Source: a virus. Taken from it: a stretch of 64,000 bases of DNA. Under the pieces are notes generated by a model, which did no database searches, was not told the origin of the DNA, and was given only the letters and a program-made list of their open reading frames with translations. The translations under genes and the position numbers were made by a program. This document shows, one piece after another, positions 11,234 through 11,407 of this stretch. Numbering within the stretch: the first letter of the stretch is position 1; each line of letters starts with the position of its first letter. The stretch is from IMG/VR virus record IMGVR_UViG_3300045988_103986, positions 32,001-96,000 of that record. The stretch is one strand, 5' to 3'.

Positions 11234-11407
11234 GTGACCAGGAAACAGCCCACAAGCCCCTGCCTTTAGGCATGGTGATAGTCTAAACATACGGTAGGGC
11301 GGGACACGCCCGAACCTATACGCTCGGGGAGACTATGTAAGACGCCACTACGGTGCAACGGTCGCTGAACTGAGAATCCCTCGGCTTTAGCCGTGGGGAG
11401 TGTCAAA
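11234..11407 (+). mobile_element. TnpB-less miniature IS200/IS605-type element (LE hairpin joined directly to the RE/omega-RNA region)
   Basis: 11234-11276 matches the left end of the element at 16152 (gtgaccaggaaacagcccacaagcccctgcctttaggcatgg). 11291-11407 is ~93% identical to 17356-17472. No ORF lies between them. Confidence 0.75.
11291..11407 (+). ncRNA. orphan omega-RNA (reRNA) scaffold copy
   Basis: Homologous to the RE-proximal region downstream of tnpB 16234-17346 and ends ...ccgtggggagtgtcaaa. The flanking would-be guide is cgcgatggctgggcatcg. Confidence 0.55.

What the first reader, a model, noticed from the sequence alone, without database searches (positions are those of the whole stretch)
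11234..11407. 174-bp TnpB-less mini-element that keeps both transposon ends and an omega-RNA scaffold: a spare guide for the phage TnpB?
- Positions 11234-11276 match the left end of the tnpB element at 16152, including the subterminal hairpin cccctgcc-ttta-ggcatgg.
- After a 14-nt junction, 11291-11407 is ~93% identical to the right-end region 17356-17472. That region in IS200/IS605 elements encodes the TnpB omega-RNA (reRNA). It ends at the same ...gtggggagtgtcaaa.
- It is therefore a PATE/MITE-like derivative, mobilisable only by a TnpA supplied in trans.
- Because the omega-RNA guide is read from the DNA flanking the RE, this copy would produce an RNA with a different guide (cgcgatggctgggcatcg...). 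That guide could load into the TnpB encoded 5 kb away.
- One phage would then carry one TnpB scaffold family with three distinct guides.
Basis: partly seen in the sequence, partly recalled or inferred. Interest (0 to 1): 0.75.

Follow-up and report, generated by a model that had tools for sequence, protein, structure and literature searches.

The report
TnpB-less mini-transposon keeping a guide-RNA scaffold
A 168-bp remnant of an IS605-type transposon in a gut phage has lost its TnpB nuclease gene but keeps both transposon ends and an intact guide-RNA scaffold, so it could borrow the phage's TnpB; elements of this kind (PATEs) are already described.

Summary
Ten related phage contigs carry the empty site, so the insertion is window 11239-11406 (168 bp, not 174). 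It lies 3' of GTGAC and has no target duplication.

It consists of 37 nt of left end, a 3-nt junction and 128 nt of right end. The deletion removed the tnpB ORF almost exactly.

The right end is 99% identical to that of a full-length element in sibling phages and 94% identical to element B in this window. It keeps every covariation-supported helix and a candidate pseudoknot. It scores 131.3 bits on a covariance model built without it, against 132.8 and 131.4 for the two TnpB-linked copies.

The window encodes two intact TnpBs and no TnpA.

This is a PATE-like, non-autonomous IS605-family derivative. PATEs that carry omega-RNAs and need TnpB in trans were already noted by Meers et al. 2023.

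Whether the RNA is made and loaded into TnpB is untested. The same mini-element was found at only one site, so there is no evidence that it has moved as a mini-element.

New context: it sits, in the sense orientation, inside a 1.5-kb pentanucleotide-periodic array downstream of a Cas7-like gene. This is probably a VIPR locus, which would supply transcription. Six sibling contigs carry the TGAC motif plus a perfect 16-nt target, so homing is directly testable.

The parts
11235..11238 (+). TGAC target / presumed TAM immediately 5' of the left end
   Evidence: Empty-site alleles read GTGAC|ACGCG. The same TGAC flanks LEs with foot CAAG (B, L035, L053, L002). LEs with foot AAAG sit at TTAC and those with foot AAAA at TTAT.
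11239..11406 (+). The mini-element proper (168 nt; PATE-like IS605-family deletion derivative)
   Evidence: Unambiguous insertion boundaries from 10 empty sites. Identical copies in L035 and L185. The periodic tract is in phase only when the element is removed.
11239..11275 (+). Left-end remnant: foot CAAG (11253-11256) and hairpin CCCCTGCC-TTTA-GGCATGG (11257-11275)
   Evidence: Exact match to LE of element B and of L035 full-length element. One basal stem pair is lost (G to T at 11276).
11276..11278 (+). 3-nt deletion junction (TGA) of unclear origin
   Evidence: Comparison with the LE of B and with the REs of L046, L035 and L008.
11279..11406 (+). Right-end part: former tnpB stop codon TAG, then the RE, ending in GAAT (11374-11377), a hairpin (11378-11398), AGTG and TCAA (11403-11406)
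   Evidence: 128-nt blast match to L008/L034 RE at 97.7%. 115/116 identical to L008 over the scaffold.
11293..11406 (+). Predicted omega-RNA scaffold (about 114 nt): helix 1, a candidate pseudoknot (GACAC 11303-11307 with GUGUC 11400-11404), a long-range helix, an inner helix and a terminal hairpin
   Evidence: RNAalifold and pair counts on 31 REs: 98.3% of cells paired, 10 pairs with compensatory change. The covariance-model hit (11287-11406) scores 131.3 bits for the mini-element against 132.8 for B and 131.4 for C. The single private change, C to T at 11381, keeps a G.U pair.
11407..11422 (+). Guide segment that the scaffold would carry (ACGCGATGGCTGGGCA), read from flanking DNA
   Evidence: Position by homology with TnpB-linked REs. 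TGAC plus this exact 16-mer is present in 6 sibling contigs with empty sites. There is no other close match in the window.
16157..17471 (+). Full-length non-autonomous element B (1315 nt): tnpB 16234-17346 and RE scaffold 17352-17471. The guide, 17472-17487, lies just outside.
   Evidence: Pfam OrfB_IS605, TNB and HTH domains. 379 bits to ISDra2 TnpB structures. RuvC D/E/D motifs read from the alignment.
25374..26694 (-). Full-length non-autonomous element C (1321 nt): tnpB 26614-25511. The guide, 25373-25358, lies just outside.
   Evidence: Empty site in L034/L008. There is an 8-nt boundary ambiguity (TGAAAGGA at both ends).
10920..12400 (+). Context: purine-rich non-coding array with 5.16-nt periodicity (probable VIPR vrRNA array) that hosts the mini-element in the sense orientation
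   Evidence: Literature.
10190..10909 (+). Context: Cas7/RAMP-fold protein gene (probable vipr) directly upstream of the array
   Evidence: AF2 model, pLDDT 74. Foldseek hits type VII Cas7, Csm3 and Cmr4 at E 4e-8 and below. Top BFVD hit is a 'Cas system-associated RAMP superfamily protein'.

Best explanation
What it is (shown). It is a non-autonomous, PATE-like derivative of an IS605-family element with IS608-type ends. A full-length tnpB-only element of the type now seen in sibling phages L008, L034 and L035 lost about 1.15 kb, from just after the left-end hairpin to the tnpB stop codon. What remains is LE + TGA + RE. It sits 3' of a TGAC target with no duplication. It lies inside a run of pentamer repeats of a probable VIPR guide array, on the same strand as the neighbouring genes.

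How it most likely works (inferred).
1. It has no promoter of its own. It would be transcribed as part of the array transcript that starts upstream.
2. The 114-116-nt scaffold folds like the scaffolds of the TnpB-linked copies. The TnpB of element B, 5 kb away, would bind it and trim its 5' end. B's own scaffold is 94% identical. Across the TnpB variants compared, differences cluster at roughly residues 60-150 and the rest is nearly invariant.
3. The resulting RNP would carry the guide ACGCGATGGCTGGGCA.
4. The only DNA that matches this guide next to a TGAC is the unoccupied allele of the same site: either after TnpA excision, or in a co-infecting or resident sibling phage.
5. Cleavage followed by recombinational repair from the occupied copy would restore or spread the mini-element. 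This is transposon homing, acting here as a guide-only selfish passenger.
6. Movement to new sites would need a Y1 TnpA supplied in trans by the host or another phage.

My estimates: identity as a PATE-like IS605 derivative about 0.95; transcription and loading into TnpB about 0.4; effective homing in nature about 0.3. The confidence value given for this explanation (0.55) is for the whole statement, identity and mechanism together.
For: - Exact LE match and 94% RE match within the window.
- Ten empty-site alleles give unambiguous 168-nt boundaries, a TGAC flank and no duplication.
- The LE-foot/target covariation matches the IS608 rule: CAAG with TGAC, AAAG with TTAC, AAAA with TTAT.
- The RE ends GAAT-hairpin-AGTG-TCAA.
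- The RE is 115/116 identical to that of the full-length L008 element.
- The scaffold structure has compensatory changes in 10 pairs and 98.3% pairing.
- The mini-element scores the same as TnpB-linked copies on a model built without it.
- TnpB B is a close homologue of ISDra2 TnpB. ISDra2's omega-RNA needs only a 116-nt scaffold, with a pseudoknot between -5..-3 and -105..-103 (PMC10097598). Here the candidate pseudoknot joins -7..-3 and -104..-100.
- Two intact TnpB genes are present.
- No TnpA is present in the window. TnpA-plus-TnpB elements with the same RE occur in viral contigs and in Clostridia MAGs.
- Six sibling contigs carry TGAC plus a perfect 16-nt target.
- The mini-element is in the sense orientation inside an array of a type shown to be transcribed in VIPR systems.
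- PATEs with omega-RNAs acting in trans are described.
Against: - There is no expression data.
- No sigma-70-like promoter lies in or near the element.
- The mini-element occurs at one site only, in three closely related records. There is no sign that it moved or spread as a mini-element.
- It differs from a full-length RE by one base, so its intact scaffold may reflect youth rather than selection.
- The LE hairpin has lost one basal pair.
- The TAM of these TnpBs is inferred from TnpA target sites, not measured.
- The TnpB most closely matched to the mini scaffold (L008 type) is only 82-85% identical to TnpB B.
- Transcription of this particular array is assumed from other VIPR systems.
Confidence: 0.55

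Rival explanations
1. Inert relic. A full-length tnpB element inserted at this TGAC site, and a recent internal deletion left LE+RE. The remnant is not expressed or not used. It persists only because it is young and nearly neutral, hitch-hiking in one phage lineage.
For: - It occupies a single site in three closely related records.
- It differs from a full-length RE by only 1 nt, so there has been no time to decay.
- No promoter was found.
- Sibling phages also carry other tnpB-less RE remnants without an LE. These include solo REs in L013, L028, L051 and L047, and REs with a 21-codon tnpB stub in L017, L018 and others. This shows that decay and recombination of these elements is common in this lineage.
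Against: - The deletion is ORF-precise and spares every element needed for both TnpA recognition and the omega-RNA.
- It is in the sense orientation inside a probably transcribed array.
- A compatible TnpB is encoded in cis on the same genome.
- None of this proves use.
Confidence: 0.35
2. Domesticated or functional part of the host array. The insertion would be a component of the VIPR-like guide array, for example a processing or terminator module, rather than a parasite of it.
For: It lies inside the array, on the same strand.
Against: - It is absent from 10 of 13 related loci, which retain an uninterrupted array.
- It breaks the phase of the pentamer periodicity: power 6.35 without it against 0.88 with it.
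- It interrupts a run of 8 pentamers with a fixed G.
- More distant homologous loci (L186-L189) have the array without any RE.
Confidence: 0.03
3. Retargeted regulator or weapon. The guide would direct TnpB, or a TldR-like inactive form, to a host or competitor-phage gene other than the empty site.
For: TnpB-derived RNA-guided repressors exist in the literature. The guide differs from those of B and C.
Against: - Both TnpBs keep the RuvC D/E/D motifs.
- Within the window the guide matches only its own flank. The next best hit has 3 mismatches, at chance level.
- By construction the guide equals the DNA next to the RE.
- Host genomes could not be scanned for it.
Confidence: 0.03
4. Assembly artefact or chance similarity.
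For: None found.
Against: - The same 168 nt at the same site occur in three independent assemblies.
- The 42-nt and 25-nt matches have 0 expected by chance.
- Presence/absence against empty sites is clean.
Confidence: 0.01

Closest known systems
PATEs (palindrome-associated transposable elements) of IS200/IS605, including the omega-RNA-bearing PATE-like elements of Geobacillus stearothermophilus (Meers et al. 2023, PMC10055086)
   Same: A short element without protein-coding genes. It keeps the LE and RE hairpins of an IS605-family transposon and the RE-encoded omega-RNA. It needs TnpA and TnpB in trans.
   Different: Found in a phage genome rather than a bacterial chromosome. Seen at a single site only, whereas PATEs are typically multi-copy. 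It is clearly a recent deletion derivative of an identifiable full-length element. It lies inside another RNA-guided system's guide array.
IS608 (Helicobacter pylori), prototype of IS200/IS605 peel-and-paste transposition
   Same: Insertion 3' of a tetranucleotide with no duplication. The LE foot tetranucleotide covaries with the target (AAAG with TTAC in several family members here). The RE has GAAT 5' of the hairpin and ends in TCAA. The IS608 motifs themselves are from established knowledge.
   Different: The mini-element and copy B use foot CAAG and target TGAC. There is no tnpA in the element or in the window.
ISDra2 TnpB-omega-RNA complex (Nakagawa et al. 2023, PMC10097598; PDB 8H1J, 8EXA)
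   Same: TnpB B aligns over its full length (E 2.5e-112). The scaffold is about 114-116 nt, lies immediately 5' of the guide, and has a pseudoknot joining the bases just before the guide to a loop about 100 nt upstream. In ISDra2 the RNA 5' of the 116-nt scaffold is dispensable.
   Different: In ISDra2 the scaffold overlaps the 3' end of tnpB. Here the whole scaffold lies downstream of the stop codon, which is why an ORF-precise deletion leaves it intact. The TAM is different (TTGAT for ISDra2, from established knowledge; TGAC inferred here).
Free-standing and intron-borne homing endonucleases of phages (intronless homing, marker exclusion; review PMC13565253)
   Same: The proposed effect is the same. 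A nuclease cuts the allele lacking the element in a co-infecting relative, and repair copies the element in.
   Different: Here recognition would be RNA-guided, and the mobile unit would carry only the guide, not the nuclease gene.
VIPR systems (bioRxiv 10.64898/2026.04.26.720920 and 10.64898/2026.04.26.720927), relevant to context only
   Same: The host locus has a phage RAMP-fold protein followed by a long intergenic array with pentanucleotide periodicity.
   Different: The mini-element is not part of VIPR. It interrupts the array. Neither TnpB nor transposons are mentioned in the VIPR discovery paper.

Membership tests
IS200/IS605-family non-autonomous element (PATE-like) | Left end with a subterminal imperfect hairpin preceded by a 'guide' tetranucleotide that matches the target | tested here: met
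   Foot CAAG plus hairpin CCCCTGCC-TTTA-GGCATGG. Exact match to the LE of B. Foot and target covary across loci. One basal stem pair is lost in the mini-element.
IS200/IS605-family non-autonomous element (PATE-like) | Right end with a hairpin and a fixed terminal cleavage tetranucleotide | tested here: met
   The RE reads GAAT, then CCCTCGGC-TTTA-GCCGTGGGG, then AGTG-TCAA, ending at 11406. The terminus is shared by 55 viral and more than 120 genomic loci.
IS200/IS605-family non-autonomous element (PATE-like) | Insertion 3' of a specific short motif, without target-site duplication | tested here: met
   Occupied and empty alleles compared in 13 loci: GTGAC|element|ACGCG against GTGAC|ACGCG.
IS200/IS605-family non-autonomous element (PATE-like) | No protein-coding gene inside the element | tested here: met
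   The 168 nt consist of LE, junction and RE only.
IS200/IS605-family non-autonomous element (PATE-like) | Multiple dispersed copies (evidence of mobilisation as a mini-element) | tested here: not met
   The junction-specific pattern was found only at this one site: L035 in IMG/VR and L185 in metagenomes. All other RE copies in the related phages are full-length or lack an LE.
IS200/IS605-family non-autonomous element (PATE-like) | Excision and insertion by a Y1 TnpA supplied in trans | not testable with these tools
   No TnpA in the window. Y1_Tnp genes are linked to the same RE family elsewhere.
TnpB omega-RNA (reRNA) | Scaffold encoded at the RE and ending at the transposon boundary, with the guide read from flanking DNA | tested here: met
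   Positional homology with 28 TnpB-linked REs. The base after TCAA is variable.
TnpB omega-RNA (reRNA) | Conserved secondary structure supported by covariation, retained in this copy | tested here: met
   30 pairs tested: 98.3% paired and 10 with changes on both sides. Slid controls give 36-48% paired. Covariance-model score 131.3 bits against 132.8 and 131.4.
TnpB omega-RNA (reRNA) | Pseudoknot joining the guide-proximal bases to a 5' loop (as in ISDra2) | tested here: inconclusive
   GACAC with GUGUC is 100% paired in 31 sequences, and 7 cells have a one-sided change that keeps a wobble pair (in 3 of the 5 pairs). No two-sided change is possible because the 3' partner was fixed by the search pattern. 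An alternative partner, GACAU, lies inside tnpB.
TnpB omega-RNA (reRNA) | Transcribed, processed and bound by TnpB; directs TAM-dependent cleavage | not testable with these tools
   No promoter-like site. A TAM-adjacent perfect target exists in 6 sibling contigs.
VIPR locus (context of the insertion) | RAMP-fold Vipr protein with a G-loop | tested here: met
   Foldseek finds Cas7, Csm3 and Cmr4 at E 4e-8 and below. Invariant G-loop GQWRN with W196 and R197, compared with SUSP1 D177-W178-R179.
VIPR locus (context of the insertion) | Adjacent non-coding array of pentanucleotide (GGY/NN-type) tandem repeats | tested here: met
   Period 5.16 nt over about 1.5 kb with a fixed G and a G/C next to it. 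It is conserved downstream of homologues at 62-63% identity. The exact consensus is looser than YNNGG.
VIPR locus (context of the insertion) | vrRNAs expressed and bound by Vipr; target repression | not testable with these tools
   Known only from the literature for other VIPR systems.

The most novel reading that the evidence does not exclude
The mini-element is a working 'guide-only' gene drive. It would be transcribed for free as part of the phage's VIPR guide array and processed and loaded by the phage's own TnpB in trans. During co-infection or superinfection of a lysogen, the RNP would cut the intact array of sibling phages at TGAC-ACGCGATGGCTGGGCA. This would copy the mini-element into them, or eliminate them. 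One RNA-guided system would thus parasitise, and target, the guide array of another. The TGCC and TGGC variants of the TAM position in three empty-site siblings could then be escape alleles.
Probability: 0.2. Interest if true: 0.7.

Novelty: new member of a known kind. Interest (0 to 1): 0.4.

Why it matters
On its own this is one more PATE-like IS605 derivative with an omega-RNA, a class already noted in the literature.

Its value is as a clean natural test case.
- One phage lineage provides the occupied allele.
- Ten sibling contigs provide empty alleles. Six have TGAC plus a perfect 16-nt target, one has a TAM-distal mismatch, and three have changes at the TAM.
- Two candidate TnpBs are encoded in cis, and the likely parental full-length element is identifiable.

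This makes two ideas directly testable with few constructs: that omega-RNAs act in trans, and that TnpB homing operates between phage genomes.

The location is also worth noting. The element lies inside a probable VIPR guide array, so it shows IS605 elements invading that newly described system. It may also borrow the array's transcription.

Tried and rejected
1. Insertion into a minus-strand gene. ORFs 10169-11290(-) and 11387-11680(-) share a frame, and 174 is a multiple of 3. Rejected: the whole 10910-12564 tract has all three stop codons in all six frames, strong purine skew and pentamer periodicity, so it is non-coding.
2. Recoded stop codon as an explanation for the tract. Rejected: TAA, TAG and TGA are all present in every frame.
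3. IStron or group I intron, or any Rfam family. No hit at gathering thresholds apart from three tRNAs. Only chance-level hits appear at E up to 10.
4. Identification of the phage in INPHARED. Only two short hits of 47 and 79 bp to the query window:9000-19000 (query positions 5357-5436), so no annotated relative.
5. Search for the same mini-element at other sites, using the junction pattern in IMG/VR and JGI metagenomes. Only the same locus was found.
6. Search for PATEs of this family in bacterial genomes by an LE-hairpin regex. Only one clear case was found: L112, about 280 nt, in an Atopobiaceae MAG. Other TnpB-less RE copies could not be classified.
7. Promoter and terminator scan around the mini-element and element B. 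Nothing above the shuffled expectation.
8. Helix between the 3' end of tnpB (GACAU) and the RE tail, proposed by RNAalifold on 240-nt alignments. Considered less likely than the loop pseudoknot, because that segment encodes the catalytic RDI motif, is absent from the mini-element and solo REs, and corresponds to a region dispensable in ISDra2. Not excluded.
9. Reading TAM-position variants in empty sites as escape mutations. This cannot be inferred, because the loci were ascertained by exact flank matches.

Full report
**Observation**

The window contains three copies of an IS605-family right end. They terminate at 11406 (+), 17471 (+) and 25374 (-) (0 expected in shuffles). Two of them follow intact tnpB genes: B at 16234-17346 (+) and C at 26614-25511 (-). 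Both have OrfB_IS605, Cas12f-like TNB and HTH domains. They are 84% identical to each other.

The third copy is the finding. 11234-11275 is an exact 42-nt copy of 16152-16193. 11291-11406 is 94% identical to 17356-17471. The described similarity is therefore real and far beyond chance.

**Exact boundaries**

I searched IMG/VR with the two flanks and recovered ten related phage contigs with an unoccupied site. It reads ...GAGAAGCAGTGAC|ACGCGATGGCTGGGCA.... Two further assemblies, L035 and L185, carry the identical insertion.

The comparison leaves no ambiguity. The insertion is 11239-11406, 168 nt, 3' of GTGAC, with no target duplication. They coincide with copy B because both sit at a TGAC target.

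The '14-nt junction' shrinks to 3 nt (TGA). 11279-11294 is right-end sequence beginning at the former tnpB stop codon. The deletion therefore removed about 1.15 kb, almost exactly the ORF and its 5' leader.

**Family and parent**

The ends are of the IS608 type. The right end reads GAAT, hairpin, AGTG, TCAA.

The left end has a tetranucleotide 'foot' 5' of a bulged hairpin. Across independent insertions this foot covaries with the flanking target:
- CAAG with TGAC (mini-element, B, L035, L053, L002)
- AAAG with TTAC (L003, L033, L040, L102)
- AAAA with TTAT (L001, L006)

This is the DNA-guide logic known for IS608. It identifies TGAC as the TnpA target and hence the presumed TnpB TAM.

The mini-element's right end is 115/116 identical to the right end of a full-length element in sibling phages L008 and L034. 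It is 97-98% identical to those in L035 and L185. It therefore derives from that element type rather than from window copy B.

**Non-autonomy**

The window has no Y1 transposase:
- Pfam on 58 ORFs found none.
- tblastn with a family TnpA found none.

Autonomous tnpA-plus-tnpB members with the same right end occur in other viral contigs (L009, L020, L031, L039, L044) and in gut Clostridia MAGs. All three window copies are therefore non-autonomous.

**Scaffold integrity**

No Rfam family covers this RNA. I aligned 31 right ends.
- RNAalifold gives helix 1, a long-range helix, an inner helix and the terminal hairpin. Compensatory changes occur in 11 of 26 pairs.
- I added a candidate pseudoknot: loop GACAC with the tail GUGUC just 5' of the guide. 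This gives 30 pairs, 98.3% paired, and 10 with two-sided changes. Slid controls give 36-48% paired.
- The pseudoknot itself shows only wobble-preserving one-sided changes, because its 3' partner was fixed by my search pattern. It remains inconclusive.

TnpB B is a close homologue of ISDra2 TnpB (E 2.5e-112). The ISDra2 omega-RNA needs only a 116-nt scaffold and has a pseudoknot between -5..-3 and -105..-103 (PMC10097598). The geometry here matches: -7..-3 with -104..-100, in a scaffold of about 114 nt.

I built a covariance model from 28 TnpB-linked right ends, excluding the mini-element. It scores the mini-element at 131.3 bits, B at 132.8 and C at 131.4. The one private substitution, C to T at 11381, keeps a G.U pair.

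**Mechanism**

Shown:
- an intact scaffold and intact TnpA-recognition ends
- compatible TnpB genes in the same genome
- natural alleles that carry TGAC plus the exact 16-nt guide match (six contigs)
- one contig with a mismatch at position 16, and three with changes at the TAM position (TGCC twice, TGGC once)

Inferred: transcription, loading, cleavage and homing.
- No promoter-like site lies nearby.
- The element is co-oriented with the flanking genes.
- It lies inside a non-coding array of a type that is transcribed in related systems (see the context section below).

In the TnpB variants of this phage group, differences cluster at about residues 60-150, while the rest is nearly invariant. 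This is compatible with cross-loading but does not show it.

Against an active role:
- The mini-element is found at a single site only.
- It is too young for its integrity to indicate selection.
- The lineage is littered with other tnpB-less right-end remnants that look like decay and recombination products.

**Comparison with known systems**

Meers et al. 2023 already describe PATE-like elements of IS200/IS605. They state that these often encode omega-RNAs that must be used in trans by TnpB from other IS copies. tnpB in phage genomes is also on record.

The finding is therefore a new member of a known kind. The PATE label is met for end architecture, target rule and lack of genes. It is not met for multi-copy dispersal.

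**Context (not part of the finding)**

The 1.65-kb gene-free tract around the mini-element is purine-rich. It has a striking 5.16-nt periodicity that is phase-coherent over about 1.5 kb. The same periodic signal appears only at the homologous tract in 15 of the 184 fetched loci, all but one of them IMG/VR contigs of this group.

The periodicity is in phase across the insertion point only if the 168 nt are removed. The left phase is -128 degrees. The right phase is -112 degrees without the element and +43 degrees with it. Power is 6.35 without it and 0.88 with it. This confirms the insertion independently.

The insertion point falls inside a run of eight pentamers with a fixed G (read from the empty-site sequence).

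The gene immediately upstream, 10190-10909, has no Pfam, PHROG, NCBIfam or PADLOC hit. It has thousands of homologues. It folds as a Cas7/RAMP protein.

Homologues at 62-63% identity in otherwise different phages are followed by the same kind of periodic tract.

This matches the VIPR systems described in two 2026 preprints: a phage RAMP protein plus arrays of pentanucleotide-repeat guide RNAs. The mini-element is thus an IS605 remnant lodged in a probable VIPR guide array. The VIPR discovery paper does not mention transposons or TnpB.

**Verdict**

The anatomy is right, the function is untested, and the concept is already published.
- Novelty: new member of a known kind.
- Interest: moderate (0.4), mainly because the lineage offers a ready-made natural experiment for trans-acting omega-RNAs and inter-phage TnpB homing, and because of where the element landed.

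Noticed in passing
window 10920-12400 (+), with gene 10190-10909 (+): This is a probable VIPR locus. A Cas7/RAMP-fold protein (Foldseek E 4e-8 to type VII Cas7, Csm3 and Cmr4; invariant G-loop GQWRN) is followed by a 1.5-kb purine-rich non-coding array with phase-coherent 5.16-nt periodicity. Common words are GCAAAGG, GCAATGG and GCAACGG. 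The same protein-plus-periodic-tract module recurs in distant phages (L186-L189). At about 1.5 kb the array is far longer than the 9-16-repeat vrRNAs described. The GC-GC distance peaks at 26 and 31 nt suggest an extra base about every six units (a staggered array?).
   Followed up: partly
window 16157-17471 compared with L047, L034, L035 and L013: Element B looks like a recombinant. Its left flank is site 1 (GTGAC|GAAACCAATTCC), which is empty in L047. Its right flank is site 2 (GTTAC|AGGTTGGTTCGG), which is empty in L034, L035 and L013. The roughly 1.1 kb between these sites in sibling phages, which holds a tRNA-Pro gene, is missing from the window. The 3' half of B's RE resembles the solo RE of L047. 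Its present guide therefore belongs to a TTAC-type site, while its LE foot specifies TGAC.
   Followed up: partly
L013 2767-2886, L028, L051, L047 63-182; L017, L018, L019, L021, L037, L042, L054: Sibling phages carry other tnpB-less right ends with high-scoring scaffolds (120-131 bits) but no recognisable left end. One type follows a tRNA-like 3' fragment. Another keeps only the last 21 codons of tnpB, fused to an upstream phage ORF. It occurs with two different downstream flanks.
   Followed up: partly
L047 about 230-560 (- strand) and the equivalent region of L013: The sequence begins like a class II tRNA (GCGTGGCCGAGTGG...) and ends with a T-arm, acceptor stem and CCA (GGGGTTCAAATCCCCGCCGCATCCACCA). 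About 100 nt lie in between. It could be an intron-containing or otherwise disrupted tRNA. ARAGORN did not call it.
   Followed up: no
L006 and L026 (IMG/VR), right flank ACCGCAGAGGAATTGAAAGAATTTGTCC: In these siblings a full-length tnpB element is inserted in the 3' end of the homologue of window ORF 9225-9815. That gene lies two genes upstream of the Cas7-like gene and may be an accessory gene of the same locus.
   Followed up: no
Genome-contig loci L065-L184: The 24-nt RE terminus GGCTTTAGCCGTGGGGAGTGTCAA is identical in more than 120 loci. They span Clostridia, Selenomonadales, Chloroflexia, cyanobacteria, Acidobacteria and archaea (Methanoculleus, Methanodesulfokora). This is remarkably strict conservation of a TnpA/TnpB recognition module across phyla.
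   Followed up: no
window 14008-14081, 17512-17588, 18245-18319: There are three phage tRNA genes (Gly-TCC, Gln-TTG, Met-CAT). Element B ends 40 nt upstream of tRNA-Gln.
   Followed up: no
L058, L059 and L062, empty-site alleles: The TAM position of the mini-element's target is TGCC in L058 and L059. These are the two contigs (108296, 100031) that carry the L008/L034-type full-length element, the closest relative of the mini RE. It is TGGC, with a changed first target base, in L062. These could be escape alleles or neutral drift. Ascertainment by exact flank match prevents a test.
   Followed up: no
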